Positions 1 through 41,470 of a DNA stretch of 41,714 nucleotides are shown here, piece by piece. The stretch covers positions 1 through 41,714 of the forward strand of contig CAZYLR010000001.1 in NCBI GenBank assembly GCA_964648835.1, read 5' to 3'. Position 1 is the stretch's first letter. Each line of letters opens with the position of its first letter. A program made the translations under genes and the position numbers. The stretch comes from an uncultured Candidatus Saccharibacteria bacterium. Its GTDB lineage: Bacteria > Patescibacteriota > Minisyncoccia > Phycocordibacterales > Zambryskibacteraceae. The notes beneath the pieces were generated by a model. That model was given only the letters and a program-made list of their open reading frames with translations, ran no database searches and had not been told where the DNA came from.

Positions 1-901
1 CCGACACATCAGTAGCGGTGGCGTTTGTCATATCCGGGCCGTTGAAGCTCCACATTCCCACAAGGCCGTTGGTGAGTTTATCATTTTGCGGGGCGTTGAT
101 TTTGGTAATAGCTGTTTGCACAATCTTCGCGGCGCCGGATTTATAGAGCGCCTGCATTTCCGTCGCCGACAACGCGCGGTTGTAGACGCGGACTTCGTCG
201 AGGGAGCCGTCAAATTCGCGGGTATTTCCAGAGTTATTTCCGATGACGAAAGAATTAGAACCACTCGTTGGTAAACTACCCATAATGAAGCCAGCCGTGG
301 TTGTTGCTTTAGCGCCGTTTACATACGGAATACAGTTCTTCGAAGAATCGAGCGTTACAGCGACATGTTGCCATTTCCGAAGAACAATGCTGCCATTACT
401 AGCAAAACAATTAAGATTTCCGCCGGAAGCATTTATGAACAGAGCAAACGTGTCATTAGGCACACCAGCTGTATTAGGATCATATAACGAAAAAGAATAT
501 CCACTTACAAAATCGTTTTCTTTATCCACGATCCTTCCTCGGAAAGAACTGGCAGAACTGCCAAAAGTTCTTGGATAAATCCATGCGCTGATTGTCAGAG
601 CCCCCGTGATATTCAAAGACGCCGGAGTACCCGCAGTCACAAGATCATCATTCGCGTCAAAACTTAACGCTTTCCCCCGTTTTCCTTCCCCCCATGTGGG
701 GCCACCGGTGAGAATTCCTCGGTTTCTATTTCCGCTAAAATCACTGGCGACTGTGCCGGTGTTTTCGTTCATGGGCCAGTAACCGACGAGGCCTAGGTTA
801 GTGGGGGGCTTTGTGAGCACAGCGGCGGGAGCGGCGACAGGAAAAAGTGCGCATATAAGCATTATCGCCGCAATTTTCAATTTATAATTTTCTATTTTCA
901 T
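1..901 (-). CDS. Secreted LamG / concanavalin-A-like lectin domain protein (N-terminal 300 codons; 3' end runs off the window)
   Basis: Absent from the ORF track because no stop lies inside the window. Hand translation of the minus strand from ATG 901-899 gives MKIENYKLKIAAIMLICALFPVAAPAAVLTKPPTNLGLVGYWPMNENTGTVASDFSGNRNRGILTGGPTWGEGKRGKALSFD...REFDGSLDEVRVYNRALSATEMQALYKSG...LVGMWSFNGPDM, open to position 1. The N-terminus looks like a signal peptide. GYWPxxE..G..DxSGNGN and FDGxxDEVRxYNRALS are the LamG_3 signature, and a second repeat starts near the window edge. The ATG overlaps the TGA of the upstream giant gene (ATGA). Confidence 0.8.
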   Translation of the reverse strand, partial: MKIENYKLKIAAIMLICALFPVAAPAAVLTKPPTNLGLVGYWPMNENTGTVASDFSGNRNRGILTGGPTWGEGKRGKALSFDANDDLVTAGTPASLNITGALTISAWIYPRTFGSSASSFRGRIVDKENDFVSGYSFSLYDPNTAGVPNDTFALFINASGGNLNCFASNGSIVLRKWQHVAVTLDSSKNCIPYVNGAKATTTAGFIMGSLPTSGSNSFVIGNNSGNTREFDGSLDEVRVYNRALSATEMQALYKSGAAKIVQTAITKINAPQNDKLTNGLVGMWSFNGPDMTNATATDVS

Positions 902-8927: not shown

Positions 8928-9533
8928 TCACCTTTTACTCCCATTATTCCCTTTGCTTTTTTGTTCTTCAAGCCAATGATCAAAATCTTTTTCAGTTTGC
9001 TCTCTTAATCTCAATCTTTCTGAAGTTGGCAAAGTATTTTCCGTACTCATTTTTTCTACTAAGGACTTTTGTAACCTCTCTATTAAAAAGTTTAGTTCTT
9101 TAGCTCGAAGTTTTAATTGAACCACCGGAGGTAACTCTGGGTCTAAAGGGTAAAAAGGGATGGACTCAAGGGGTGGAAATTTTTCTCCCATTTTTCCCAT
9201 TACTCCCCTTTCACCCATTACTCCCTTTATTCCCATTAACTCTGGATAGTACCCCTTCCAGATGTCAGTGAAATCTTCCTCTAATTCCGCATTTGATGCC
9301 ACGGCGTATCCAAGAAACTCATAATACTCTTTCGTTGAATTCCTCTTCCATCCTTCAGTAATGTTCTGCTTAGTAGACCGTGCCGAACGATTCATCTGAT
9401 CAGCCAGAGCAATGGCTGTTTTAGATCGAGGGAATAACAAAGTTAGATCGGCACAGAGACTCTGAAGTTCATCCGATTTTCTATAGACTAATAAATCTCT
9501 GTAGCCGTATGGATTGCGAGTTGGCTTGATCAT
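8928..9533 (-). CDS. Four-helix-bundle protein (23S rRNA intervening-sequence protein family) with a Gly-rich insertion and C-terminal extension
   Basis: YRDLLVYRKSDELQSLCADLTLLFP...ADQMNRSARSTKQNITEGWKRNSTKEYYEFLGYAVASNAELEEDF matches the family pattern (..W.ka..L...iy.l...fP......l..Q.rRaa.Si..NIaEG..R.s.kE...FL.iA.gS..El...). The start overlaps the gatB stop (ATGA). Confidence 0.8.
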   Translation of the reverse strand: MIKPTRNPYGYRDLLVYRKSDELQSLCADLTLLFPRSKTAIALADQMNRSARSTKQNITEGWKRNSTKEYYEFLGYAVASNAELEEDFTDIWKGYYPELMGIKGVMGERGVMGKMGEKFPPLESIPFYPLDPELPPVVQLKLRAKELNFLIERLQKSLVEKMSTENTLPTSERLRLREQTEKDFDHWLEEQKSKGNNGSKR

Positions 9534-30958: not shown

Positions 30959-32089
30959 TTATTGCTTTATTATGTCAGAGATTAACAAATCTATCTCATT
31001 ATTTACAATCGATACAGGAGTGCACTTGGCTTGGCGCTTGACCTCTTCAGTATCGTAAACGCGGGCATTCATGACGAAAAGCTCCGGGCCCTTGCGCGAG
31101 GGCACGATCACTTTGTGGAAACGGCTAATCGGAGGTTGCTCATTTTCATCCACAGGGCCGACAATATCTATTGTTGGTACCCCAAATGCTTCCGCAATAT
31201 AGATCGGCCCCGTATCTGCTGAAATAAAAAGCTTGAGTTTAGAGATAAAAGCCTTTGTCTCTTCAATGTTAAGTCTGCCAACCAAGTTAATAACTCTGGT
31301 ATCATGGCCTAAATGATTGAACATAACATTCGCCTCTTCATTATCATTTGGACCACCGATAATAACGACCGTAGCCTTATGTTTATCGCTTAAATGATCC
31401 GCCACTGAAGAAAATTTCTCCGCGGGCCATTGCTTTATTCGGTTTCCAGCCGAAGGTGATATACCGACAGGAAAATCCACACCATCGATGAAAACAGAGA
31501 CTGACTCTGCCGCTTTCTCTGAATAATACAGGTGTTTTTTGGTGTCATCAGTGAAGACTCCTATCGGCTCCAAAAGCTTCAAGTACTCCCTGGGAGCATA
31601 GGATCTCATCCGGTGAGGCTTTGCTATGACTAATTTTCTCAATAAACGATATGATCTCGTTTCATACGGACTCCAGCCGTTTTCTATCCTGGGAGCCGAA
31701 ATCATTGGAATATTTGCGAGAAGAATAAGCGACAAGGCATCAAAACCGGGTGCAGTTACACATCCAAAATCGAATTTTCCTTTTTTTATATCATTCAAAA
31801 TGGAAAAAGGATATTTCTTATCCCACACGATATACTCGTCAACATCACGATTCCCCGCCAAAAGTTCCTTATTGACGACATTCCCCACCACAGTAATCCT
31901 GGCTTCGGGATAGGTTTTTTTGACCGCTCGGAACATTGGCGTGGTGCAAACCATGTCTCCCAATTTTGCCAACTGGATAATAAGAACTTTGGGAGAATTT
32001 ACCCGAGGCTGATTCTTTGGCTTCTGGCGGAAATAACTTAAGAAATAGCAGGTTGCCAAGATTAGGACTATCCTAAAAAAAATTTTCAT
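30959..32089 (-). CDS. Glycosyltransferase family 9 (heptosyltransferase-like) with N-terminal membrane anchor
   Basis: VLIIQLAKLGDMVCTTPMFRAVKKTYPEARITVVG matches the GT9 N-terminal pattern (iLii....iGD.v...p...alk..yP.a.i..l). ISADTGPIYIAEAFGVPTI matches the GT9 C-terminal pattern (i.nDsGpmHlAaAlg.P.v). Confidence 0.8.
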   Translation of the reverse strand: MKIFFRIVLILATCYFLSYFRQKPKNQPRVNSPKVLIIQLAKLGDMVCTTPMFRAVKKTYPEARITVVGNVVNKELLAGNRDVDEYIVWDKKYPFSILNDIKKGKFDFGCVTAPGFDALSLILLANIPMISAPRIENGWSPYETRSYRLLRKLVIAKPHRMRSYAPREYLKLLEPIGVFTDDTKKHLYYSEKAAESVSVFIDGVDFPVGISPSAGNRIKQWPAEKFSSVADHLSDKHKATVVIIGGPNDNEEANVMFNHLGHDTRVINLVGRLNIEETKAFISKLKLFISADTGPIYIAEAFGVPTIDIVGPVDENEQPPISRFHKVIVPSRKGPELFVMNARVYDTEEVKRQAKCTPVSIVNNEIDLLISDIIKQ

Positions 32090-33042
32090 TTGTTAAGATA
32101 CTTTTTTAACTCTTCAAGCGTCACAGCCGTAGTGCCACGCTTCGTGACAGAAAGAGTGCTGACAACATTGGCAATCTGAGCAGACCTTTCCGGAGATTGG
32201 CCCGCTGCAATTAAGATAGAGAGAGCGGCCAGAGCCGTATCACCCGCGCCAATACCGTCTCTTTTGACGACCCTCAAACCTTTTATATCCAAATAATTCT
32301 TGTCTTCCTTTTTACACAAAAGCATTCCTTTAGCCCCTCGTGTAACCAGCACATGGGCACCCAGCATAGAAGATATCTTACTGGCAGCGAGCCTTAAATT
32401 GTTTGTACCTGCCATCTCCACTGCTTCATTGTTGTTTGGCTTTACAATAGTCACCCCCTTAAACCAAAGCATATTTTGCGGCTTTACATCAGCAATGATT
32501 GGGATTTTATTTCTGACCGCAAGACGAATAATTGCATGGACCAAATGCTTAGATAATGTCCCCTTCTTATAATCGGAGAGAACAATGGCATCGTAGGATG
32601 AAATACGTTTTTGTATCAATTGAAAAAGTTTTTTGGAAAGAACCGGCGCGACCATCTTGTCAGTTTCCTTGTCGAGTCTGATGAGATATTTACTGTTTCC
32701 GAAAATTCTGGCCTTCAGTGTAGACATCCGTTTCTTATCCACCAGAATATGACTTTTTATCTTTGACTTGACTAGTAATCGATTAATCGTTTTGCCAATA
32801 TCGTCTTGGCCAACAATAGAAAAAAGTTCTGGCTTACTGCCAAGAGCTTTGATATTGACAGCTACATTTGCTGCTCCACCCAAGATATCGTTCTCTTTAT
32901 GCCAAAGCACAATTGATGCGTCAGCTTCGGGAGATTTCCGGGTAACTGTGCCTTCAAGGAAACGGTCCAACATTATATCTCCTACAACTGCAATCCTTTT
33001 ATTGTGAAATGAACCAAGCCCCCTCTGATCACTAGTGTCCAT
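32086..33042 (-). CDS. hldA: D-glycero-beta-D-manno-heptose-7-phosphate kinase (RfaE/HldE domain I, PfkB family)
   Basis: RIAVVGDIMLDRFLEGTVTRKSPEADASIVLWHKENDILGGAANVAVNIKALG parallels HldE-I (vlVvGDvMLDrYw.G.v.RiSPEAPvPVv......e.pGGAANVa.Ni..LG). The C-terminal motif is GAGDTA. Confidence 0.8.
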   Translation of the reverse strand: MDTSDQRGLGSFHNKRIAVVGDIMLDRFLEGTVTRKSPEADASIVLWHKENDILGGAANVAVNIKALGSKPELFSIVGQDDIGKTINRLLVKSKIKSHILVDKKRMSTLKARIFGNSKYLIRLDKETDKMVAPVLSKKLFQLIQKRISSYDAIVLSDYKKGTLSKHLVHAIIRLAVRNKIPIIADVKPQNMLWFKGVTIVKPNNNEAVEMAGTNNLRLAASKISSMLGAHVLVTRGAKGMLLCKKEDKNYLDIKGLRVVKRDGIGAGDTALAALSILIAAGQSPERSAQIANVVSTLSVTKRGTTAVTLEELKKYLNK

Positions 33043-33093
33043 AAGAGGCTATGATAGTATAAATGCTGCAATGATAAAAGCCTATTTAGAAAA

Positions 33094-33588
33094 CTAGTCA
33101 GATCCCCCGCCGTAAGCTTTAGCGATGCGATCAATGATATTAGTTGTCGACTGGATCCGGCCAGGAACAATTACCACTCTACCACCATTCTTGCGAACAG
33201 TCGCTGTTTCAATAAGAGTCTCTGAATCATAGTCTCCACCTTTGGTATGAATCGCTGGTTTTATTGACGCTAATAAATTTACCGGATCTGGTTCGTTAAA
33301 AATAGTTACATAATCAACACAAGCCAGCGCTGCAATGATTTCTGCACGCTGAGCTTCAGGTATGATAGGGCGAAGGTCGGATTTGTACTCTTTAACTGAA
33401 GAATCGGAGTTTACCCCGACAATAAGCACGTCTCCGAGAAACTTGCTCTGTTCGAGCATTCTTTTCTGACCAATGTGCAGAATATCAAAAGCACCGTTGG
33501 TTGTAACGATTTTTTTTCCTTGTCCTTTAAACACTTCAATAATAACAAGAAGTTCCTCCAGAGACACCACTTTTTTTGAAGTATCCAT
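33094..33588 (-). CDS. hldC: D-glycero-beta-D-manno-heptose-1-phosphate adenylyltransferase (RfaE/HldE domain II, cytidylyltransferase fold)
   Basis: KIVTTNGAFDILHIGQKRMLEQSKFLGDVLIVGVNSDSSV...KGGDY...STTNIIDRI parallels HldE-II (kvV.TNG.FDiLH.GHv.yL..Ar.lGD.LiVavNsD.S...KGGDY...STt.ii.ki). Confidence 0.85.
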   Translation of the reverse strand: MDTSKKVVSLEELLVIIEVFKGQGKKIVTTNGAFDILHIGQKRMLEQSKFLGDVLIVGVNSDSSVKEYKSDLRPIIPEAQRAEIIAALACVDYVTIFNEPDPVNLLASIKPAIHTKGGDYDSETLIETATVRKNGGRVVIVPGRIQSTTNIIDRIAKAYGGGSD

Positions 33589-33590
33589 GT

Positions 33591-34727
33591 TTAAGTGATA
33601 AATTCAATAATTTTTTGAGCCCTCTTTTCCCAAGTGTAATCATTTACTTTCGACAACGCTCTTGAGGCTTTTTCATCAGATTCTCCTTTGTGTGCTAATA
33701 CGTATTCCATGATCCGAGCTAGGTTTTCTGGGTCATCCAGTTTAAAAAAGTTGGCCATCGAATCATCCAGCACCTCCCGTATTGATGGCAAATCGGAAGC
33801 GATAATCGGAGTGCCGCTGGCCATGTATTCAAACATTTTTAACGGAGACATGTAAAGCGAGAAGTGTTTGGTGGAGGGATAATTCATAACCAGGATGTCA
33901 GACAACTTTAAATACATTGGAATATCTTTGTGAGGAACGAACATCACCAAAGAATAGTTCTCTTTGCCAATATCCCCTTTTCCCATCAGTTTCTCGAGCC
34001 CGGAGACTTCTGATTTGTTTACACCAACAATGAGTAGAAACAGGTTTGGATATTTCCCCAGCAAGCAAGAAAAGGTGGAAATCAGTTCATCTACCCCCTT
34101 CTTGCCTCCCATCGTTGTGTATTTGCCTATATACGAGACAATGAAAGCCTCTCGGGGCAAGCTGAGTTTCTCTCTAAGTTCAGTTTTAGGTGTCGAAATC
34201 TCAAAATCTTTTAAGCTAACCCCGTCGTGGGCGACTAGAATTCTTTCTTCTTTCACTCCGCGAGACATCAAAAATTTCTTTAATCCAGAGGAAATGGTTA
34301 TTAATCGAACATGGCTATTCATGACTACATTAACGAGAGGGTTCAAAGCATTGGTGTGTATTTCCAAATAAATATTACTCTTAAACAAGCTCGCGATAAA
34401 CACGAACAACTCATCTCGAGAGTAGTAAATATCGGCTCTATAAAAGAGGATCATGATTATAGAAATGAAGGTGAATGTGATTTTTTGTACCCAGAATCCT
34501 AGCCAACCAAAACGAACTAGATCAAGGGAAGGAATTTTGACGATTTTAAAATTTCTCTTGGTATGGAAATGATCAAATGGATCAGCTTTTATGATGTTAT
34601 ACCTGGTGGGTACCCATAACTCAACCTCAGTTCCAGAATCAGCGAAAGCTTCACACATTTTCATTATCTGGACCCCGTGAGCTTTACCTGTTGGAATACG
34701 GACATTCGCCACATAGACAAGTTTCAT
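33591..34727 (-). CDS. Glycosyltransferase family 4
   Basis: MKLVYVANVRIPTGKAHGVQIMKMCEAFA. The C-terminal region is SPLKMFEYMASGTPIIASDLPSIREVL. Confidence 0.8.
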   Translation of the reverse strand: MKLVYVANVRIPTGKAHGVQIMKMCEAFADSGTEVELWVPTRYNIIKADPFDHFHTKRNFKIVKIPSLDLVRFGWLGFWVQKITFTFISIIMILFYRADIYYSRDELFVFIASLFKSNIYLEIHTNALNPLVNVVMNSHVRLITISSGLKKFLMSRGVKEERILVAHDGVSLKDFEISTPKTELREKLSLPREAFIVSYIGKYTTMGGKKGVDELISTFSCLLGKYPNLFLLIVGVNKSEVSGLEKLMGKGDIGKENYSLVMFVPHKDIPMYLKLSDILVMNYPSTKHFSLYMSPLKMFEYMASGTPIIASDLPSIREVLDDSMANFFKLDDPENLARIMEYVLAHKGESDEKASRALSKVNDYTWEKRAQKIIEFIT

Positions 34728-34776
34728 AAATATTTGACTTTATTATACATCAGTTTTATAATCATCGCAATAAAGT

Positions 34777-35730
34777 ATGAGAGAGGGAAAAATGCTCGCT
34801 ATTTTTGAAGAAATTCAAAATCAATTTAATCATGCCAACGGTGGTGTATATATTCATATTGATGATTTTAAAAACTTTTATATGCCACTAATAAATTACT
34901 ATATAAATGATAGAGAGAGAAGAAGCATAGATTCATATATTATCGGCATTCAGGGACCACAAGGTGTTGGTAAAACTGTTTTTGCAACGCTGGCAAAAAC
35001 TTTTCTAAAAGCCGCTGGTTATAGAGTAGAAACTATTTCTATCGATGATTTTTATAAGTCGAATGACGAACGTCTTAAAATCTCAAAAAAATATATTGGG
35101 AACCCTTTTTATCAAATTTCAAGAGGAATGCCAGGTACTCACAACCACGAATTATTATTTGAAACGCTTAAAAAAGCTAAGGCCGCTGAAAATTTTTTTA
35201 TCCCCAGGTTTGATAAGTCGCTTATATCAGGCAGGGGGGATATAGCTAAAGATAGTACAACAATAAACAAACAACTACACTTTTTGATACTTGAAGGTTG
35301 GTGTATAAATATGCCCTCAAGAGAGGATAAATTTTTATCTTCAGTAAAAAAGAATGGGTACGTAAAAAGCATATTTAACAATATAGATCCTGGGCGCGAA
35401 CACTTTAAATTAGTCCTAAAATATCTTAAAAAATACCAAAAAATATGGCATATTTTAGACAGTAAGACTTTTATATTTGCAAAGAATATCTCGTGGACAA
35501 CAGATTGGCGCAAAGAACAGGAAAAAAAACTAGTAATGTCAAAGGGTCAAGGTATGAGTGACAAAGAAGTAAACCGATTTGTGAAACCTTTTATTCCTTT
35601 TAGTTATTTTATCTACAAGGAACTAGTTCGAAACAATAACGAAAATCATTGTTTAATAGAAGTTGGGCGTGATCATACCCCTAAGAGAATGTATATGCCA
35701 TCCAAAAAACAAAATCTAAAATTTATATGA
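34777..35730 (+). CDS. P-loop kinase of the D-glycerate 3-kinase (GLYK) / yeast TDA10 family (PRK/uridine-kinase superfamily)
   Basis: IIGIQGPQGVGKTV...ISIDDFYKSNDER...SRGMPGTHNHELL...IPRFDKSLISGRGDIA...FLILEGWCIN parallels plant, cyanobacterial and yeast GLYK/TDA10 (G.sgPQGsGKs...SiDDFYLt...l..RG.pGTHD..L...lP.yDKS...G.GDR....vilfEGW.lGF). That comparison is recalled from memory. Confidence 0.7.
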   Translation: MREGKMLAIFEEIQNQFNHANGGVYIHIDDFKNFYMPLINYYINDRERRSIDSYIIGIQGPQGVGKTVFATLAKTFLKAAGYRVETISIDDFYKSNDERLKISKKYIGNPFYQISRGMPGTHNHELLFETLKKAKAAENFFIPRFDKSLISGRGDIAKDSTTINKQLHFLILEGWCINMPSREDKFLSSVKKNGYVKSIFNNIDPGREHFKLVLKYLKKYQKIWHILDSKTFIFAKNISWTTDWRKEQEKKLVMSKGQGMSDKEVNRFVKPFIPFSYFIYKELVRNNNENHCLIEVGRDHTPKRMYMPSKKQNLKFI

Positions 35731-36437
35731 AGGCACTAATCACATCAGCAGGGCTTGGGTCTAGAATTCCTGAGCTTAAAAATACAAACAAGTCCTTGAT
35801 AAAGATTGGTAATAAAACTTTAATTTCTCGCGCTATAGATTCGTTAAACAGCCGTGGCATAAATGACATATATGTGATTACCGGCCACAATGCAAAAAAA
35901 GTGGAAAAAGAGATTACCGATAGAGCAACTCCCATTTTCAACCCTTTTTACAAAACATCAGGCATAATCGTTTCTATGTGGCTTGCAAAACAATTTCTTG
36001 AAAAAGAAGACTTCATCTTCATGACCAACGACGTACTATTCGACCCAAGACTTATCGATAGGTGTCTTATGAGCAAAAAAGATATAGTCATACCCATAGA
36101 GAGAAAGGAGGGCTACACTAAGGAAGATTCTAAAGTTATAGTACGAAAAGGTATGATAATAAAAACGGGTAAGAATCTGCCACTATCAAAAACGAGTGGA
36201 GAATTTGGACATATGGCGGTGTTTAGTAAAAAAGGAGGCCAGCAGCTATTTAACAAGATAGAGTCATTTATTCTGGAGGAAAAAATAAATTCTTACTTAA
36301 TGGATGTTTTCAACGCTTTAATCGAAGATGGGGTACACTTGTACCCCGTTGATATCACCGGCATCCCAAGAATAGAAATAGATTATATGATGGATTTAAT
36401 AAGTGCACGAAAAAAAATATTTCCGCTAATAAAATGA
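35727..36437 (+). CDS. Sugar/alcohol-phosphate nucleotidyltransferase (LicC / IPCT-like NTP_transferase)
   Basis: MKALITSAGLGSRIPELKNTNKSLIKIGNKTLISRAIDSLNSRGINDIYVITGH parallels LicC-type cytidylyltransferases (MKAiILAAGlGtRl.plT...PK.Lv.v..k.li...i..L...gi.di.iv.Gy). The start overlaps the upstream stop (ATGA). Confidence 0.75.
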   Translation: MKALITSAGLGSRIPELKNTNKSLIKIGNKTLISRAIDSLNSRGINDIYVITGHNAKKVEKEITDRATPIFNPFYKTSGIIVSMWLAKQFLEKEDFIFMTNDVLFDPRLIDRCLMSKKDIVIPIERKEGYTKEDSKVIVRKGMIIKTGKNLPLSKTSGEFGHMAVFSKKGGQQLFNKIESFILEEKINSYLMDVFNALIEDGVHLYPVDITGIPRIEIDYMMDLISARKKIFPLIK

Positions 36438-37732
36438 CATCCGAAAAAGATTTCATAATAGGAAGAAAAGACGCAAGGCCGGAAAAATACGTGGTGGTTA
36501 AATATAGATTTCAAACTCCTGGCAATTTTATAAATGCAGCGGTAGATTTATCAAAAGAACAAAGTTTCTCCTCTATCGAAGACCCTATAAAAGAAAAGGA
36601 GCTTATCAAAAGATTTGCAGCAAAAGTGATTTCAGACTCCGTAGTGGAAACAAATATCAAAAGAATTCCTGACATGCCCTCTTATATATATTCCCAAAAG
36701 GACGGACCATTTATAACGCGCGAAGTAGAACTTGCCTTTCCTATAGAGCTTTTTGGAGACAGTTTGGTGCTTCTTTTAGATACAGTAATAGGTGAAGTGC
36801 ATAATATAGCTAAATTCACCGGTCTTAAGGTGTTAGATATAGAATTTCCTAGAAGCTGGAATAAAAAGTATGGCGGACCTGTATTCGGGATAGAAGGCAT
36901 TAGAAAAATAGTTGGTAAAAAAAATGGCCCCCTGCTTATCAGCCCGGTTAAACCCTGTGTTGGCTTATCTCCCGATGAATTTGCTGGGCGTGTTAAACGA
37001 TGTTTGATGGGGGGATTTGATGGCGTAAAAGACGATGAGCTGCTTCTTGACCCCCCTTATTGCCCATTCAAAGAGCGCGTAACCAAGACAATGAGAACGG
37101 TAAAAGAGGTTGAGAAAAAAACGGGGAGGAAAAAAATCTATTTCGCGCATGTGGGAGGAGATATTGATAAAATAGATGGTCTTGTTAAATTTGCGCTAAG
37201 CAAAGGTGTTGGGGGAATTATGTTCTCTCCTCTTGTCAATGGTATCGATATAATAAGAAAATACAAAGGTAAAGTTCCAATTATTGCTCACAATAATCTT
37301 ACATATGGTATGTCTAGGCATCCATTAAATGGCGTATCTTTTCATTTGCTTATGAAAATTCAACGCCTTTGCGGAGCAGATATGGTAATTTGTCCCGCGC
37401 CTGATAGAAGTTTTTATGTCATGGATATAGAAACCCATAAGAAGAATGTACAGGCATGCACTATGGACAATGGGATGCGGAAAACTTTAGCCGGTCTTTC
37501 TGGATCACAAACCCCAGAAACATTATATAATCACTATAAAATTTTAGGACATGATGATTATGCCATATGTCCAGGAGCTGCGGTGTACGAACATCCCATG
37601 GGAATAGAGGCGGGTGCTACAAGTTTCGTTGAGGCAGTTGATGCGCTCAATAATGGTATCCTGCTTAAAAAATATGCAAAAAACCATGAGGCCTTACGAG
37701 TATCGATGAGTCACTTTGTAAAGAAAGGATGA
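36434..37732 (+). CDS. RuBisCO large-subunit-like protein (form IV-type RLP derived from form III; not a carboxylase by residue pattern)
   Basis: GPVFGIEGIRKIVGKKNGPLLISPVKPCVGLSPDEF..GGFDGVKDDELLLDPPYCPFKERV..TGRKKIYFAHV..IIAHNNLTYGMSRHPLNGVSFHLLMKIQRLCGADMVICP..HPMGIEAGATSFVEAVDA..L.KYAKNHEAL aligns by eye along its length with archaeal form III RbcL (GPAFGIEGVRK..RPIYGVVPKPKVGYSPEEF..YMKDDENL..TGEKKTWFANI..IHGHRAMHA..GISMFVLAKLYRLIGIDQLHVG..HPDGPAAGARAVRQAIDA..L.EYAKTHKEL). Confidence 0.85.
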   Translation: MTSEKDFIIGRKDARPEKYVVVKYRFQTPGNFINAAVDLSKEQSFSSIEDPIKEKELIKRFAAKVISDSVVETNIKRIPDMPSYIYSQKDGPFITREVELAFPIELFGDSLVLLLDTVIGEVHNIAKFTGLKVLDIEFPRSWNKKYGGPVFGIEGIRKIVGKKNGPLLISPVKPCVGLSPDEFAGRVKRCLMGGFDGVKDDELLLDPPYCPFKERVTKTMRTVKEVEKKTGRKKIYFAHVGGDIDKIDGLVKFALSKGVGGIMFSPLVNGIDIIRKYKGKVPIIAHNNLTYGMSRHPLNGVSFHLLMKIQRLCGADMVICPAPDRSFYVMDIETHKKNVQACTMDNGMRKTLAGLSGSQTPETLYNHYKILGHDDYAICPGAAVYEHPMGIEAGATSFVEAVDALNNGILLKKYAKNHEALRVSMSHFVKKG

Positions 37733-38232
37733 TTATGAAGCCAGAATTATTCTTAAGCTTAAGACAAAAAATCATTCTTGTCGGTGGGGATCATCATGCA
37801 CGCGACCTTTCAGAAGTTGCTTATAAATATCTTAAGAAACAAGGTTTAAATGTAAAAATGGTAACCTATAATGAAAAACTCTATGATTACATACATCAGG
37901 CAAATCTAGTAGCAAAAAAGGTTAGCGCCAACCCCGGTAAATACTGTGGCATAGTGGGCTGCAACAATGGCTTCGGAGTGACGACTGTGTGTAATAAGTA
38001 CCCGTCAGTATATGCCGTTAGATGCGACAACCAGCAACAGGCTAGAAAAGCTAGAATTATAAATTATAGCAATGTACTCACCTTTGGTGCCTCTTTTCAA
38101 AACGAACAAAAAATTAAAAAGATCATCGACCTCTGGCTTTGCACAGACTTTGAATTAAGCAAAAAAAACACAAGCAGATTGAAACGTTTATTCAAAATAG
38201 AACAGAAACTCAACAAAAGTTTCAGACATTAA
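37729..38232 (+). CDS. RpiB/LacA/LacB-family sugar-phosphate isomerase-like protein
   Basis: GIVGCNNGFGVTTVCNKYPSVYAVRCDNQQQARKARIINYSNVLTFGASF...IIDLWLCTDFE parallels RpiB (GIliCGTGiGmsIaANK..GiRAA.c.d...A...R.HNdaNvL.lG.r.....a..Iv..fL.T.Fe). The usual CGTG is replaced by CNNG. ATGA overlap with the RLP gene. Confidence 0.65.
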   Translation: MIMKPELFLSLRQKIILVGGDHHARDLSEVAYKYLKKQGLNVKMVTYNEKLYDYIHQANLVAKKVSANPGKYCGIVGCNNGFGVTTVCNKYPSVYAVRCDNQQQARKARIINYSNVLTFGASFQNEQKIKKIIDLWLCTDFELSKKNTSRLKRLFKIEQKLNKSFRH

Positions 38233-38236
38233 ATTA

Positions 38237-39475
38237 ATGATTTCAATAATTTTTAGCAAGATAACAACTTTCTCAGAGATTCTTCTAGGTTGGATTATTT
38301 ACCCACTCTCTTTCTTAACCCCACGCTCTGACAAAATATGGGTTTTCATAGGATGCCGACAAAGTAAAGAGCGAGAGCTCTTTGCTGACAATTCGAAATA
38401 TATGTTTCTTTATGTAGCACAAAATATTCCAGATATTAGGACTATTTGGATAAGTGGCGACAACCAACTGCCAAAAGTTATTAGAGGATTGGGTTATAAA
38501 GCGTATTACATATACAGCCTCCAGGGTGTCTTTTACTCTCTGCGTGCTGGCTACACTTTCGTTGACGCGTTTGTGCAGTTTAGCAACTGGAAATTCTGTG
38601 GCAGTACGAAGGTTATCCAACTTTGGCACGGAAAAAGTATGAAGAAAACCGCTTATGCAAGTCCTTACAGTTTACCTGCCGCCAGCAGACTTATTTCACC
38701 CAACCTTTTTAAAAATTATGAGTATGTTATCGCTGCATCTGAATATGCGGGCAAAATGATATCCACTGTCTTTAGAATCCCCATGGAAAAAGTCTTAATT
38801 ACCGGCTTGCCCAGACACGATGTGATGTTTAAAAAAATAAAAGGATCAGAAATCGACAGTGTTCCTGTCTTAGAGGATAAGGTCAAATCTCTTAAAAAAG
38901 CTGGGATAAATAAAATAGTTTCCTACGCACCAACATTCCGTCCTAATGCGACCAACCCATTATTTGAGAATCTTAAAAAAGGCATAGATACGTTCCAATT
39001 GGATTTAAAGATGTTGGATAGACTTTTCAGAAAGCAAAATTCTCATCTCTTCATCACACTTCATCCTAAATTTTCTTTGGATAATTACGGCACCGATGAA
39101 TTCAGGAACATAACCTTTCTGCCATCTGGTTTCGATGTTTATCTTACTCTCCCACTTTTTGACGCGCTTATCACGGATTACTCAAGCTTATTCTCGGATT
39201 TCCTTCTGTTAGACAGACCAATGGTATTTTTAGTCTATGATTTGGAGAAATATAAGGTCGAAATGGGACTCTTTGACGACTTCGATGAAATGACGCCGGG
39301 TCCAAAAGTTTTCACCAACCAGGAACTCGTAGTCGAAGTGGAGAAAGTACTTGATGGTGTAGACGAATACAAAGAGAAACGTGGCAAAATACGCCAGATT
39401 TTCTATAAAAACCCTGATGGCCATTCGGCCCAAAGATTATCAAAAATTCTTGAAGATAAACTAGACACTAAATAG
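38237..39475 (+). CDS. CDP-alcohol (glycerol/ribitol)-phosphotransferase family protein, TagF/TagB-like (Glyphos_transf)
   Basis: VIQLWHGKSMKK, VSYAPTFRPN and LITDYSSLFSDFLLLDRPMVFLVYDLEKY match TagF-family motifs (QlWHG.plK, YAPTfR, liTDYSSv.fDy..l.rPiifF.yD...Y). Confidence 0.8.
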   Translation: MISIIFSKITTFSEILLGWIIYPLSFLTPRSDKIWVFIGCRQSKERELFADNSKYMFLYVAQNIPDIRTIWISGDNQLPKVIRGLGYKAYYIYSLQGVFYSLRAGYTFVDAFVQFSNWKFCGSTKVIQLWHGKSMKKTAYASPYSLPAASRLISPNLFKNYEYVIAASEYAGKMISTVFRIPMEKVLITGLPRHDVMFKKIKGSEIDSVPVLEDKVKSLKKAGINKIVSYAPTFRPNATNPLFENLKKGIDTFQLDLKMLDRLFRKQNSHLFITLHPKFSLDNYGTDEFRNITFLPSGFDVYLTLPLFDALITDYSSLFSDFLLLDRPMVFLVYDLEKYKVEMGLFDDFDEMTPGPKVFTNQELVVEVEKVLDGVDEYKEKRGKIRQIFYKNPDGHSAQRLSKILEDKLDTK

Positions 39476-39476
39476 A

Positions 39477-40556
39477 CTAGTATTTCTCATAATATTCCAG
39501 ATACTCTTTTGCGGTTTTTTCCCAAGTCATTAAGGCGGCGAATTTTCTAGATTCCTCGCTCAATCCTTGCGCTAACTTTTCATCACTTATAATTTTGACG
39601 ATAACATCACCAGTTGCGTCCACATCTTTAGCCAGTACAAGAAAGCCATTATTACCATTTAAAACAGCATCTTCAGCTGAACTATCTTTACTTCCTATCA
39701 CTGGTAGTCCATGTGAAGCAGCTTCAAGATAAACCATGCCGAAACCTTCTACATCATTCGGCGTCTCTTGTGGCATCAGGAGAAAAAGCTTGGCTCTGGA
39801 ATAGACAAAGTCCAACTCGTCAGGTTTAAGGTCAGAATAGAAAAAGACTTTGTCTTTTACATCCAACTTCACAATAAGATCCAGAAGTTCTTTTTTATAG
39901 TCATTGTCACTAGGAATGCCCACGATCACGTAACTTAATCCCGGGATTTTTTCCAGAGACCTGGCGAAGGCACTAATCGAGTATTCGTACCCCTTTCTCC
40001 TTTTTATATAACCGACTGTAAGAATATAGGGCTCGGGTATATCCGGGATTTCTGAATGTTTGCCCGTAAATTCCTGCCCCAGACCGAGATTAATTGTGTG
40101 AATATTCAAATTCGGCATTTTCTCTTTAATTCTCTTAGAAATGTAAGAACTTATGGCAAAAACTTGCCTGGCTTTTCTATAGCCGAACTTTAAAAGAAAG
40201 TTCCTTAGAAAACTGTTCGGCGTAAATATGGCTCCGCTTCCCACGCCCGTCACAAAGACGGGCCGGCCCGTACCGATAGTGGCTAAGACCGCCAGGAATC
40301 CGTATGGGAAACCATCGAGAGCATGGACTAGGTCATACTTCTTCAGTACGCGCCTGATCTTGAAAAAGTTTTTCAAGATATCTCTTCTGTTTACCGAAAG
40401 GACATGACTTTCCCCTTTATCCGCGCCACTATCAGAAACGAGAAAATCAATCTGCCAATCTAGCCTTAGTTTGAGCACGGCATCAGCCAGATTCCGAGAA
40501 AAAATTCCTGACCCGGTATTTTTTTTGATGTCATGAGTAAAGTAACAAATTTTCAT
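39477..40556 (-). CDS. Glycosyltransferase family 4
   Basis: MKICYFTHDIKKNTGSGIFSRNLA and EGFGMVYLEAASHGLPVIGSKDSSAEDAV (the E(x7)E region). Its stop codon is 1 nt from the convergent TagF-like stop. Confidence 0.8.
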   Translation of the reverse strand: MKICYFTHDIKKNTGSGIFSRNLADAVLKLRLDWQIDFLVSDSGADKGESHVLSVNRRDILKNFFKIRRVLKKYDLVHALDGFPYGFLAVLATIGTGRPVFVTGVGSGAIFTPNSFLRNFLLKFGYRKARQVFAISSYISKRIKEKMPNLNIHTINLGLGQEFTGKHSEIPDIPEPYILTVGYIKRRKGYEYSISAFARSLEKIPGLSYVIVGIPSDNDYKKELLDLIVKLDVKDKVFFYSDLKPDELDFVYSRAKLFLLMPQETPNDVEGFGMVYLEAASHGLPVIGSKDSSAEDAVLNGNNGFLVLAKDVDATGDVIVKIISDEKLAQGLSEESRKFAALMTWEKTAKEYLEYYEKY

Positions 40557-41470
40557 TTCATTTCCTCGAATAACTTTTCCATCAATAACTTCAAACTATG
40601 GTCTTCCGCCCTAAAACTCTTAAGATCAGAATTTCTTACTTCCAGTTTGGCACCACAAGCAGCTGCTTCGATTATCGTCTTATCCATACTGCCAGCAGGT
40701 GTGAAGTTGGCGTAAATTTCGTACGTTTGATAAAGCTTGAGAGCCTCTTCTTGATTCACGGGCCCGATGAATTTGATCCTATCTGAAGCTGTTCTCCTCA
40801 CGAGCTCTTCATACTTTTTATCTTTCGCCAGAGCCACGCCGGCGATAGTCGCTCTAAACTTGATATCAAGAGTATTGAACCACTCAACGAATTCAAGAAC
40901 CTTCTTGACCGGAGCGATGCGGCCAAGAAACAGTACGGAGTTAGGAACTCTAGACACAGATGCATCCGGCTTGAAAAAATCCGTATCTATACCGACAGGC
41001 ATAAGTGTTGTTTTTTTAAAGCGAGCGGTAAAGGAATGCGGGGAGGTACAAAAGACTTTGCCTGAAAGCAATACGGCTAGACAAGTCCATAGACCACCCT
41101 TAGCATGATTTCTCCACATTGATACCTTCTTGTGCAAAAGCTTCCAAAGTAATCCACCCAAAAGCACATACTCCTGATTCATGTGAACAAACACAACATC
41201 GTAGTTATTTCTCTCTTGCCAAATATATCTATAGAACCTGAAAATATATTTAAGTTTGGACTTATTTTGTTCCTTACCTAGAGACAATACTCTAACATTT
41301 ATCGGTAAACGATGTTCTCTCATTTCAAGACAAATGACTGTTACCTTTTCGCAATGCTTAGCAAACTCCTCTATCCAGCGGTGAAAGAAACCCAAAACAG
41401 GGTCATTTCTATCAACTTTTTGGGTGATGACAAGGAGTCTCATTTTATGTTGGTGGCTATACTTGCCCAA
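40553..41470 (-). CDS. Glycosyltransferase (GT-B, GT4-like)
   Basis: MRLLVITQKVDRNDPVLGFFHRWIEEFAK... and the C-terminal MDKTIIEAAACGAKL. The likely true start is ATG 41443-41441 (MRLLVI), which forms an ATGA overlap with the stop of the upstream partial gene. Confidence 0.7.
   Translation of the reverse strand: MGKYSHQHKMRLLVITQKVDRNDPVLGFFHRWIEEFAKHCEKVTVICLEMREHRLPINVRVLSLGKEQNKSKLKYIFRFYRYIWQERNNYDVVFVHMNQEYVLLGGLLWKLLHKKVSMWRNHAKGGLWTCLAVLLSGKVFCTSPHSFTARFKKTTLMPVGIDTDFFKPDASVSRVPNSVLFLGRIAPVKKVLEFVEWFNTLDIKFRATIAGVALAKDKKYEELVRRTASDRIKFIGPVNQEEALKLYQTYEIYANFTPAGSMDKTIIEAAACGAKLEVRNSDLKSFRAEDHSLKLLMEKLFEEMK

What the first reader, a model, noticed from the sequence alone, without database searches (positions are those of the whole stretch)
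36434..37732. RuBisCO-like protein keeps the Mg/carbamate/enolisation core but has lost CO2-fixation and P-binding residues
I aligned the ORF by eye to archaeal form III RbcL, recalled from memory, using spinach numbering. K175 is retained (PVKPC). K177 becomes C. The carbamylated K201-D203-E204 triad is retained (GVKDDE). N123 becomes E (IGEV versus AGNI). H294 is retained (AHNN), while R295 becomes N and H298 becomes T. H327 becomes I (DMVICP versus DQLHVG). The loop-6 K334 motif (GKLEG) is absent (RSFYV). GGG403-405 becomes GAA. Overall similarity to form III remains high from about residue 100 to the C-terminus. This is the pattern of a form IV RLP that can still enolise a substrate but not carboxylate RuBP. 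Its closeness to form III suggests a recent functional shift within a lineage (CPR) known for form II/III and III-like RuBisCOs.
Basis: partly seen in the sequence, partly recalled or inferred. Interest (0 to 1): 0.75.

Follow-up and report, generated by a model that had tools for sequence, protein, structure and literature searches.

The report
RuBisCO-like enzyme in envelope-polymer operon
This Parcubacteria gene encodes a non-carbon-fixing relative of RuBisCO that sits in a conserved operon with a kinase, a sugar isomerase, a CTP-type activating enzyme and a teichoic-acid-type transferase, so it most likely helps make a building block for a cell-surface polymer, a role not yet described for this enzyme family.

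Summary
ORF 36434-37732 (432 aa) belongs to the RuBisCO large-subunit superfamily. A computed alignment to verified spinach and Thermococcus sequences reproduces every residue call. K175 and the K201/D203/E204 Mg-carbamate triad, H294 and E60 are kept. K177 is C, N123 is E, R295 is N, H298 is T, H327 is I, loop 6 with K334 is deleted, and GGG403-405 is GAA.

The "close to form III, recent shift" reading does not hold. The nearest sequences and folds are the function-unknown IV-Photo RLPs (30% identity, TM 0.92), against 28% for form III. The gene belongs to a small Parcubacteria/DPANN clade; Parcubacteria form IV RLPs were already reported by Jaffe et al.

The gene context appears unreported. 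The RLP is translationally coupled in a five-gene operon: D-glycerate-3-kinase-like kinase, LicC/IspD-like nucleotidyltransferase, RLP, divergent RpiB-like isomerase, TagF-like phosphotransferase. The four-gene core is syntenic in five lineages, with TagF or LicD nearby. A related RLP group (K175R) sits in TagF–IspD–RLP operons.

Best explanation: a Mg-dependent enolising isomerase that makes a monophosphorylated keto-sugar, which is CDP-activated and attached to envelope glycans. The substrate is unknown.

The parts
34734..34762 (+). Sigma-70-like promoter (TTGACT-17-TATAAT, 11/12 match) in the 49-bp divergent gap just before the operon's first gene.
   Evidence: Best-scoring promoter-like site in 34400-39900; sequence read. 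This is a consensus match only and was not tested.
34777..35730 (+). P-loop kinase of the D-glycerate 3-kinase (GLYK/TDA10) family, 317 aa, first gene of the operon.
   Evidence: PDB hits: 6CKG D-glycerate 3-kinase 6.6e-24, 7XPC GLYK 1e-21, 1ODF 1.3e-20. There are only weak Pfam/NCBIfam hits to uridine kinase and PanK. Its stop overlaps the next start by 4 nt. It is syntenic at 33-92% identity in L001, L004, L005, L009 and L011.
35727..36437 (+). Nucleotidyltransferase (MobA-like NTP_transf_3; LicC/IPCT/IspD-like), predicted to act as a CTP:phospho-alcohol or phospho-sugar cytidylyltransferase.
   Evidence: Pfam NTP_transf_3 6.3e-11, IspD 5e-4. Best PDB hit is 1JYK CTP:phosphocholine cytidylyltransferase at 4.7e-9, followed by inositol-1-P cytidylyltransferase. 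Best NCBIfam hit is IPCT. It overlaps the RLP start by 4 nt. It is syntenic at 43-99% identity in six loci.
36434..37732 (+). RuBisCO-like protein (the finding). Non-carboxylating, with an intact Mg/carbamate core. Key residues: K173, C175, K199, D201, E202, E121, H286, N287, T290, I319, R325, S356, S358, G381.
37729..38232 (+). Divergent RpiB/LacAB-family sugar(-phosphate) isomerase. The catalytic Cys is kept (C78) and D21/H22 are kept. The residue equivalent to T67 is N, H98 is I, and the phosphate-binding R132/H133 pair is K146/N147 (C. thermocellum numbering).
   Evidence: Pfam LacAB_rpiB 1.2e-28. It is below the NCBIfam RpiB cut-offs: 89 bits against 135, and 81.7 against 88.3. PDB 3HE8 3e-14. 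The substitutions are conserved in all cassette copies. Residue roles come from published RpiB work recalled from memory.
38237..39475 (+). TagF-like CDP-alditol:glycan phosphotransferase (Glyphos_transf), last gene of the operon.
   Evidence: Pfam PF04464 3.1e-55. NCBIfam TarF and TarL hits are far below cut-off. The homologue in L005 is 40% identical and sits in the same relative position.
33591..34727 (-). GT4 glycosyltransferase, divergently transcribed from the operon. It is part of the surrounding surface-glycan cluster (about 17984-41470), which also has Wzy_C, a flippase, YfhO, GT2, GT9, AsnB-like and methyltransferase genes.
   Evidence: A 68% identical copy sits in the same position in L004.
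39477..41470 (-). Two GT4 glycosyltransferases convergent with the operon end.
   Evidence: conserved in L011.

Best explanation
The ORF is an active, non-carboxylating RuBisCO-like protein. I infer that it uses its carbamylated Lys199 with Asp201 and Glu202 to hold Mg2+, and that it enolises a keto-sugar (or keto-acid-sugar) carrying a single phosphate. The second phosphate site of RuBisCO (R295/H298/H327) and the CO2-handling residues (K177, K334/loop 6) are gone, so it cannot fix CO2. It works inside a five-gene operon that I read as a pathway for a CDP-activated phospho-sugar or phospho-alcohol. In that reading, the GLYK-like kinase and the RpiB-like isomerase make a phosphorylated ketose from a scavenged sugar. 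The RLP then rearranges it through an enediolate. This could be a carbonyl shift or epimerisation, as DeepYkrW RLPs do when they turn 5-methylthioribulose-1-P into 1-methylthioxylulose-5-P. The LicC/IspD-like enzyme couples the product to CMP. The TagF-like transferase (LicD-like in other lineages) adds the unit by a phosphodiester bond to a cell-surface glycan. What is shown: the residue pattern, the fold, purifying selection, the operon structure and its conservation. What is inferred: catalysis, the order of steps, and the identity of the substrate, which is unknown. Candidate substrates are ribulose/ribose phosphates, 5-deoxy- or 5-methylthio-ribulose-1-P, and tetrulose phosphates.
For: (1) The core catalytic residues are kept and the carboxylation and P2 residues are lost, invariantly across the clade. 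dN/dS is 0.05-0.16.
(2) Kinase/NT, NT/RLP and RLP/RpiB each overlap by 4 nt. RpiB and TagF are separated by a 4-nt gap. A strong promoter-like site precedes the kinase, and a convergent gene follows TagF.
(3) The kinase-NT-RLP-RpiB order is conserved in five lineages with RLP identity from 61 to 98%: window/L011, L004, L001, L005/L012 and L009. A CDP-alcohol-type transferase lies nearby each time the flank is available: TagF-like in the window and L005, LicD plus an LtaS-like sulfatase-family gene in L001. NUDIX genes lie next to the cassette in L001 and L005.
(4) A related RLP group with K175R/K177A, whose profile hits our clade next after its own members, sits in TagF-like / IspD-like cytidylyltransferase / RLP operons. 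These have 4-nt overlaps and lie inside polysaccharide clusters in three lineages: L015, L016/17 and L024. The RLP there occupies the slot that the reductase TarJ has in TarIJ systems.
(5) In L006-type loci the GLYK-like kinase is replaced by an MtnK-like kinase (2OLC 1.5e-7) next to the same RLP and RpiB. A kinase step therefore looks integral to the module.
(6) Other RLP clades sampled sit in catabolic contexts with different kinases: DUF1537, UPF0261 plus aldolase. The link to NT/TagF is therefore specific to these clades.
(7) The window is a Parcubacteria envelope-glycan cluster containing YfhO, Wzy_C, a flippase and many glycosyltransferases.
Against: All functional evidence is gene neighbourhood plus residue logic; nothing was assayed. 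No reductase is encoded in any cassette, so the product would not be a classical alditol phosphate unless an unlinked enzyme reduces it, and CDP-ketose donors for TagF/LicD enzymes are not established. L006-type loci have the RLP, a kinase and RpiB but no nucleotidyltransferase, so the core module may serve another purpose and be recruited only sometimes. The sister proteins P0056 and P0057 gave uninformative contexts. The RLP in L006-type loci is frameshifted. The phosphate-site assignments (P1 kept, P2 lost) rest on RuBisCO literature recalled from memory and were not checked in 3D.
Confidence: 0.55

Rival explanations
1. This is a salvage or catabolic module. Kinase, RpiB-like isomerase and RLP convert a scavenged sugar into a central metabolite. 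The sugar could be 5-methylthioribose or 5-deoxyribose from SAM by-products, with the RLP acting like the DeepYkrW 5-methylthioribulose-1-P 1,3-isomerase. On this view the neighbouring nucleotidyltransferase and TagF genes belong to a separate pathway.
For: L006-type loci carry the RLP, an MtnK-like kinase and RpiB without any nucleotidyltransferase. All characterised RLPs work in salvage or catabolism (PMC6389311; PMC5893883). The RpiB-like protein has lost the R132/H133 phosphate-binding pair, which fits a 5-substituent that is not phosphorylated.
Against: The NT overlaps both the kinase and the RLP by 4 nt and travels with them in five lineages. The related RLP group keeps the NT and TagF but has no kinase or isomerase. 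No MtnA, MtnP, cupin or aldolase partner is present in the cassette. R. palustris IV-Photo RLP2 has negligible MTRu-1P isomerase activity in vivo.
Confidence: 0.17
2. The RLP is a decarboxylase or transcarboxylase acting on a phosphorylated 3-oxo acid sugar, like OiaX/OiaT of apiose catabolism. The GLYK-like enzyme would phosphorylate an acid sugar, and the RpiB-like enzyme would isomerise the resulting tetrulose phosphate.
For: The kinase's only clear relatives phosphorylate an acid sugar, D-glycerate. The NCBIfam OiaX model aligns end to end at 183 bits. Distant RLPs pair with DUF1537 acid-sugar kinases. Loss of the RpiB residue equivalent to H98, thought to open the ring, would fit an acyclic C4 substrate. 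A transaldolase gene sits in the L005 cassette.
Against: The OiaX score is far below the 700-bit cut-off and equals the MtnW score, so it is generic superfamily similarity. No dehydrogenase is present to make a 3-oxo acid. This rival differs from the best explanation only in the chemistry of the RLP step.
Confidence: 0.12
3. It is an orphan IV-Photo-type RLP with a sulfur-oxidation or oxidative-stress role, as proposed for C. tepidum and suggested for CPR by Jaffe et al.
For: The nearest solved structures are IV-Photo RLPs. This is the published suggestion.
Against: In the NJ tree the clade falls outside the core IV-Photo signature group. It differs at positions 177, 295, 298, 379, 404 and 65/66. 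The C. tepidum phenotype is pleiotropic and has no known reaction, and R. palustris RLP2 shows no such phenotype. This view does not explain the conserved operon.
Confidence: 0.08
4. It is a bona fide (form III-like) RuBP carboxylase of the CPR nucleotide-salvage pathway.
For: It belongs to the superfamily, and CPR bacteria often carry form II/III or III-like enzymes.
Against: K177, R295, H298, H327 and K334/loop 6 are all missing. The TIGR03326 score is 172.7 against a cut-off of 497. No deoA or e2b2 gene lies nearby.
Confidence: 0.01

Closest known systems
Form IV-Photo RuBisCO-like proteins (C. tepidum RLP 1TEL/1YKW; R. palustris RLP2 2QYG)
   Same: They are the best sequence hits (2e-53, full length; 30% identity) and the best fold hits (TM 0.88-0.92). 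Shared features are E at position 123, I at 327, the loop-6 deletion, S at 381, an N-domain insertion, and retained K175, K201, D203, E204 and H294. Their function is also unknown.
   Different: Position 177 is C rather than N. Position 295 is N rather than F. Position 298 is T/S rather than I. Position 379 is S rather than G. Position 404 is G/A/S rather than R. Positions 65/66 are S/T/C-I/F rather than Q-W. In the NJ tree the clade lies outside the core Photo group, on a long branch with sisters carrying C177/N295. A Photo-type relative (P0017) sits in a catabolic context with no nucleotidyltransferase.
Parcubacteria/Micrarchaeota form IV RLPs reported by Jaffe et al. 2019 (PMC6389311)
   Same: The host group is the same: the window's SecA is 100% identical to Parcubacteria GW2011_GWC1_43_30. 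They were also described as IV-Photo-related, with partially conserved catalytic residues and signs of lateral transfer to DPANN.
   Different: In the passages retrieved, that paper gave no gene-context analysis for form IV RLPs and only speculated on an oxidative-stress role. Whether this exact sequence is among their eight was not checked.
DeepYkrW RLP (R. rubrum / R. palustris RLP1, 5-methylthioribulose-1-P 1,3-isomerase)
   Same: It offers the best mechanistic analogy. It is a non-carboxylating RLP that moves a carbonyl along a ketose-1-phosphate via enediolates, downstream of a kinase/phosphorylase and an isomerase. An MtnK-like kinase neighbours the RLP in L006-type loci.
   Different: No MtnA, MtnP or cupin partners are present. 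The partners here are a GLYK-like kinase, an RpiB-like isomerase and a cytidylyltransferase. Sequence relatedness to DeepYkrW was not tested with a reference.
TarI/TarJ-TarL (CDP-ribitol) and TagD-TagF (CDP-glycerol) teichoic-acid pathways
   Same: The logic is the same: make a phospho-alcohol, activate it with CTP using an IspD/LicC-fold enzyme, and transfer it with a TagF-family enzyme.
   Different: There is no TarJ-type reductase; an RLP, with or without a kinase and isomerase, occupies that slot. The TagF-like and NT proteins score far below the TarF, TarL and TarI equivalog cut-offs.
MtnW/YkrW 2,3-diketo-5-methylthiopentyl-1-P enolase
   Same: The superfamily, the Mg/carbamate core and the use of a monophosphate substrate are shared. 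The NCBIfam model aligns over residues 95-427.
   Different: Scores are 183 against 409 and 146.7 against 513.6, both below cut-off. Position 123 is Glu here; from the literature as I recall it, MtnW has its catalytic Lys there. There is no methionine-salvage context.

Membership tests
RuBisCO large-subunit superfamily | Catalytic TIM-barrel domain (PF00016) plus N-terminal domain (PF02788), and the two-domain fold. | tested here: met
   PF00016 scores 120.3 bits against a cut-off of 30.1. PF02788 scores 22.6 against 20.7. The AlphaFold model has TM 0.92 to 2QYG over 435 columns.
RuBisCO large-subunit superfamily | Metal/carbamate triad K201-D203-E204, plus K175 and H294. | tested here: met
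   The equivalents are K199, D201, E202, K173 and H286. They are invariant in the clade.
Bona fide carboxylase (form III) | K177, R295, H298, H327, K334 on loop 6, G381, G403, G404. | tested here: not met
   The equivalents are C, N, T, I, deleted, S, G, A.
Bona fide carboxylase (form III) | NCBIfam TIGR03326 equivalog score of at least 497.45. | tested here: not met
   172.7 bits.
Form IV-Photo RLP | Core signature at positions 60, 65, 66, 123, 175, 177, 201, 203, 204, 294, 295, 298, 327, (334), 379, 381, 403, 404 = EQWEKNKDEHFII(R)GSGR. This signature was derived here from 1TEL, 2QYG and five close relatives. | tested here: not met
   The window gives ESIEKCKDEHNTI(-/S)SSGA. It matches at 11 of 18 positions and differs at 65, 66, 177, 295, 298, 379 and 404.
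Form IV-Photo RLP | Phylogenetic placement inside the Photo clade. | tested here: inconclusive
   In the NJ/BLOSUM62 tree of 174 sequences the clade sits in a neighbouring group, but the deep branches are only 0.01-0.03 long and there is no support measure. Jaffe et al. placed Parcubacteria RLPs within IV-Photo.
MtnW/YkrW enolase | NCBIfam equivalog cut-offs (NF007095 409; TIGR03332 513.6), and Lys at the position of N123. | tested here: not met
   Scores are 183 and 146.7 bits. Position 123 is Glu121. The role of that Lys is from the literature as I recall it.
OiaX 3-oxo-isoapionate-4-P decarboxylase | NCBIfam NF042437 score of at least 700, with a DUF1537 kinase partner. | tested here: not met
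   183.2 bits. The neighbouring kinase is GLYK-like, not DUF1537.
DeepYkrW MTRu-1P isomerase | Clade membership, and MtnA/MtnP plus cupin partners. | tested here: inconclusive
   No reference sequence was available for placement. The partners are absent from the window. An MtnK-like kinase is present only in L006-type loci.
CDP-alditol (teichoic-acid-type) biosynthesis module | A cytidylyltransferase and a TagF- or LicD-family phosphotransferase in one operon. | tested here: met
CDP-alditol (teichoic-acid-type) biosynthesis module | A dedicated reductase that makes the alditol phosphate (TarJ, GpsA or Gtp1 type). | tested here: not met
   No dehydrogenase is encoded in the cassette in any of the five lineages.
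CDP-alditol (teichoic-acid-type) biosynthesis module | CTP specificity and the identity of the activated group. | not testable with these tools
   This needs enzymology.

The most novel reading that the evidence does not exclude
Two related RLP clades would be the committed enzymes of an undescribed route to CDP-activated keto-sugar phosphates, which TagF/LicD-type transferases then install on cell envelopes. The clades are this C177 clade in Parcubacteria/DPANN and the larger K175R clade in Desulfobacterota, Pseudomonadota, Rubricoccus and Nanoarchaeota. This would be the first anabolic, cell-wall role for the RuBisCO superfamily. In the boldest version the sugar comes from SAM by-products. 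5-deoxy- or 5-methylthio-ribose would be isomerised, phosphorylated at C1, and shifted by the RLP to 1-deoxy- or 1-methylthio-xylulose-5-P before CMP activation.
Probability: 0.35. Interest if true: 0.85.

Novelty: new variant of a known kind. Interest (0 to 1): 0.6.

Why it matters
Most RuBisCO-like protein clades, including the structurally solved IV-Photo type, still have no known reaction after about 20 years. Here the gene context gives a concrete hypothesis that can be tested in vitro. Four small soluble enzymes plus ATP and CTP should yield a CDP-linked product. If this is confirmed, it would add a biosynthetic cell-envelope role to a superfamily known only for CO2 fixation, sulfur salvage and sugar-acid catabolism. 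It would define a new donor substrate for TagF/LicD transferases. It would also say something about the surface chemistry of CPR and DPANN organisms, whose envelopes mediate their episymbiotic lifestyle. If it is not confirmed, the finding remains an ordinary member of an already reported Parcubacteria RLP clade.

Tried and rejected
- Rfam and tRNA scans of the window found nothing. Taxonomy came instead from SecA.
- The GTDB genome scan with the clade profile found only the Nanoarchaeota MAG, so no cultured host was found for this clade.
- IMG/VR scans with both RLP profiles found no relatives. A phage origin for this clade is therefore not supported.
- Contexts of the nearest sisters P0056 and P0057 were uninformative: short contigs and unrelated neighbours.
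- The look-up of the Rubricoccus marinus homologue P0129, which comes from a cultured isolate, failed because there was no exact record.
- L023 is cut just upstream of its RLP.
- I searched for RLP fusions to a nucleotidyltransferase, kinase or isomerase among long homologues. Only cupin fusions and one carrier-protein fusion were found.
- Full-text searches that paired 'RuBisCO-like protein' (or 'RuBisCO-like') with 'teichoic acid', 'cytidylyltransferase' or 'CDP-ribitol' found nothing relevant.
- The Tabita 2007 review was not held, so the residue-role statements rest on my own knowledge.
- RuBP as substrate was considered because RpiB plus a PRK-superfamily kinase plus an RLP resembles a Calvin-cycle trio. 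I rejected it because the C5-phosphate site is lost and the kinase matches GLYK, not PRK.
- CDP/GDP-phosphoglycerate as the product was considered and set aside, because it leaves the RLP and RpiB without a role.
Full report
**1. The observation**

ORF 36434-37732 (+) encodes 432 aa. It matches Pfam RuBisCO_large at 1.2e-34 and, weakly, the N-terminal domain.

To test the by-eye residue calls I needed trustworthy references. I recalled the spinach RbcL and T. kodakarensis form III sequences and then verified them. They are identical to PDB 8RUC/1IR1 (475/475) and 1GEH (444/444) respectively. The C. tepidum (1TEL) and R. palustris RLP2 (2QYG) sequences were taken from the alignments printed.

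A MAFFT L-INS-i alignment reproduces every claim:
- K175 is K173.
- K177 is C175.
- K201/D203/E204 are K199/D201/E202.
- N123 is E121.
- H294 is H286.
- R295 is N287.
- H298 is T290.
- H327 is I319.
- Loop 6 with K334 is removed by a 15-residue gap.
- GGG403-405 is G381-A382-A383.

In addition, E60 and S379 are kept, T65 is S, W66 is I and G381 is S.

Two refinements apply. The clade consensus at 403-405 is GGA, not GAA. A basic residue (R325; R or K in all full-length clade members) also survives in the loop-6 stump.

The motifs LISPVKPCVGL, GGFDGVKDDELLLDP, PIIxHNNL, GADMxICPAPDRSF, SGSQTP and CPGxAVYEHP are invariant or nearly so across 14 clade members at 52-85% identity. dN/dS is 0.16 against L011 and about 0.05 against L004. 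This is a maintained enzyme, not a decaying carboxylase.

**2. Where it belongs**

- BLASTP gives 30.0% identity, E 2e-58, full length, to both IV-Photo RLPs. It gives 27.8%, E 4e-40, to T. kodakarensis form III, and 26.5% to spinach.
- The top PDB sequence hits are 1TEL, 1YKW and 2QYG.
- An AlphaFold model (pLDDT 93.3, pTM 0.92) superposes best on 2QYG (TM 0.92, rmsd 2.1 A) and 1YKW/1TEL, ahead of any form III structure.
- All NCBIfam equivalog models (MtnW, OiaX, form III, form II) score far below their cut-offs.

With IV-Photo RLPs the protein shares E123, I327, the loop-6 deletion, S381 and an N-domain insertion. It differs at positions 177, 295, 298, 379, 404 and 65/66.

I searched 1.84 billion cluster representatives. 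151 had E below 1e-30, and only one (P0005) represents this tight clade. The nearest sisters are 40-44% identical and share C177/N295.

A rough NJ tree puts the clade on a long branch beside those sisters. It lies in a larger group that also holds a populous K175R/K177A clade. The core IV-Photo signature group is a neighbour, and the deep branches are unresolved.

The window is bacterial and comes from the Parcubacteria. Its SecA is 100% identical to Parcubacteria group bacterium GW2011_GWC1_43_30 and about 83% identical to Zambryskibacteria.

Jaffe et al. (PMC6389311) already reported eight Parcubacteria form IV RLPs nesting with IV-Photo. They noted partially conserved catalytic residues and speculated on an oxidative-stress role. 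The existence and residue pattern of Parcubacteria form IV RLPs of this kind are therefore known.

The function of IV-Photo RLPs themselves was still unresolved in the 2018 study I read. R. palustris RLP2 plays a negligible role in MTA metabolism (PMC5893883).

**3.

The RLP is the third gene of a tightly packed five-gene unit.

| Coordinates | Gene | Key evidence |
|---|---|---|
| 34777-35730 | P-loop kinase | Only clear relatives are D-glycerate 3-kinases: 6CKG 6.6e-24, 7XPC, 1ODF |
| 35727-36437 | MobA-like nucleotidyltransferase | Closest to LicC CTP:phosphocholine and inositol-1-P cytidylyltransferases |
| 36434-37732 | RLP | See sections 1 and 2 |
| 37729-38232 | Divergent RpiB/LacAB isomerase | |
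| 38237-39475 | TagF-like CDP-glycerol/ribitol-type phosphotransferase | PF04464 3e-55 |

The first three junctions are 4-nt overlaps. The best promoter-like site in the region (TTGACT-17-TATAAT) lies just upstream of the kinase. A convergent gene follows TagF.

The unit lies in a cluster of about 24 kb for surface glycans. That cluster has GT4, GT2 and GT9 glycosyltransferases, Wzy_C, a flippase, YfhO, AsnB-like and methyltransferase genes, and HldE-like genes.

**4. Conservation of the context**

Contigs carrying clade members show the same kinase-NT-RLP-RpiB order in the following loci.

| Locus | RLP identity | Notes |
|---|---|---|
| L011 | 98% | Same order, with TagF-like |
| L004 | 85% | Contig is cut just after the RLP, so RpiB is not seen |
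| L001/L003 | 74% | Binned as Nanoarchaeota |
| L005/L012 | 69% | L012 starts at the NT, so its kinase is cut off |
| L009 | 61% | |

Partner proteins diverge in step with the RLP: kinase 33-92%, NT 43-99%, RpiB 43-99%.

A transferase that uses CDP-alcohols is nearby whenever the flank exists. It is TagF-like in the window, L011 and L005. In L001 it is LicD, together with an LtaS-like sulfatase-family protein. NUDIX hydrolases flank the cassette in L001 and L005. L005 inserts a transaldolase-family gene between RpiB and TagF.

In a fifth set of loci (L006-8, 13, 14) the RLP and RpiB are joined by a different kinase that resembles methylthioribose kinase (2OLC 1.5e-7). No NT is present there, and the RLP is split by a frameshift.

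**5. A second RLP lineage with the same wiring**

The metagenome scan also returned RLPs that are 32-34% identical to ours and belong to the K175R/K177A group. In L015, L016/L017 and L024 (RLPs 44-74% identical to each other) the order is TagF-like, then an IspD/TarI-like cytidylyltransferase (PF01128, 6e-33), then the RLP. In L024 these three genes have 4-nt overlaps. The operons are embedded in polysaccharide clusters containing Bac_transf, Wzy_C, GT4, a pyruvyl transferase and a flippase.

A profile of this group hits our clade next after its own members. Members of the group are labelled Desulfobacterota, Pseudomonadota, Syntrophotaleaceae, Nanoarchaeota and the isolate Rubricoccus marinus.

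By contrast, a Photo-type relative (P0017) and a K334-retaining RLP (P0018) sit in catabolic contexts. These contain UPF0261, a class II aldolase and transketolase in one case, and a DUF1537 acid-sugar kinase in the other. The link to cytidylyltransferase and TagF is therefore specific and recurrent. I found no paper that mentions it.

**6. Mechanism**

Shown: the Mg/carbamate core and H294 are intact. The residues that bind the C5 phosphate of RuBP (R295, H298, H327) are absent. So are those that handle CO2 and the late steps of carboxylation (K177, K334 on loop 6).

Inferred from RuBisCO/RLP enzymology as I know it: the enzyme still abstracts a proton next to a carbonyl and stabilises an enediolate on Mg2+. 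Its substrate carries one phosphate. In all characterised RLP substrates that phosphate sits on the carbon adjacent to the carbonyl, in the P1 pocket. Here that pocket is partly retained (S358, G381, G/A382).

The RpiB-like partner keeps the catalytic Cys (C78) and D21/H22. It has N for T67, I/V/T for H98, and K-N for the phosphate-binding R132-H133 pair, in every cassette copy. It is therefore not an ordinary ribose-5-P isomerase and may act on an acyclic sugar or one without a 5-phosphate.

My best reading is as follows. The isomerase and kinase make a ketose monophosphate. The RLP shifts the carbonyl or epimerises the sugar, analogous to the DeepYkrW 1,3-isomerisation. The NT forms CDP-X. 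TagF or LicD transfers X-phosphate to a glycan.

In the K175R clade the RLP stands where TarJ stands in CDP-ribitol systems. The absence of any reductase is the main puzzle. It means X is probably not a classical alditol. I put about 0.55 on the pathway-level claim and much less on any particular substrate.

**7. Rivals**

The rivals are:
- a salvage or catabolic module unrelated to the NT and TagF genes (0.17);
- an OiaX-like decarboxylase acting on an acid-sugar phosphate made by the GLYK-like kinase (0.12);
- an IV-Photo-type stress or sulfur role (0.08);
- a true carboxylase (0.01).

**8. Verdict**

It is a non-carboxylating RLP, but it is not a recent offshoot of form III.

As a protein it is a member of an already reported Parcubacteria RLP clade. 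Its conserved operon, mirrored in a related clade, suggests a new envelope-biosynthetic role that can be tested directly.

Noticed in passing
window 898-8382 (-): A 2494-aa ORF lies in a 50-53% GC stretch, while the rest of the window is 35-46% GC. Its only Pfam hit is a Peptidase_S74 endosialidase-chaperone domain at aa 2246-2299. It may be a giant surface or tail-fibre-like protein and may be foreign DNA.
   Followed up: partly
L006 3508-4813; L007 6472-7777; L008 2475-3780: In three JGI samples the same-clade RLP is split into two overlapping ORFs of 183 and 258 aa in different frames. Its kinase neighbour is MtnK-like instead of GLYK-like, and no nucleotidyltransferase is present. Whether this is a pseudogene, a sequencing error or a programmed frameshift is unresolved.
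   Followed up: partly
L001/L003/L010 (JADFLA010000044.1) versus window 34777-38232: The whole kinase-NT-RLP-RpiB cassette is shared at 51-74% amino-acid identity between this Parcubacteria window and a contig binned as Nanoarchaeota. This is either cross-domain transfer of the cassette or mis-binning.
   Followed up: partly
L015 6141-9233; L016 6012-9242; L024 571-3640: A separate, larger RLP clade has Arg in place of the otherwise near-universal K175 and Ala at 177. It sits in TagF-like / IspD-like / RLP operons. A K175R RLP is unusual in its own right.
   Followed up: partly
P0077 (494 aa; also P0103, P0128 signature EGYEREKDEHYL): An RLP is fused at its C-terminus to a phosphopantetheine-attachment (carrier protein) domain. 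P0047, P0162 and P0168 are RLP-cupin fusions.
   Followed up: no
window 30959-33588 (-): A GT9 heptosyltransferase, a PfkB-family kinase and a separate cytidylyltransferase-like gene lie together. This looks like a split HldE/ADP-heptose-type pathway in a CPR bacterium.
   Followed up: no
window 8928-9533 (-): An ORF of the 23S rRNA intervening-sequence protein family is present, but Rfam detected no rRNA in the window.
   Followed up: no
L001 14927-16495 (-): A fusion of a cytidylyltransferase-like domain with an Fe-dependent alcohol dehydrogenase (glycerol-1-P dehydrogenase-like) lies on the Nanoarchaeota-binned contig. It may be a one-protein CDP-glycerol synthase, about 5.5 kb downstream of the RLP cassette.
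   Followed up: no
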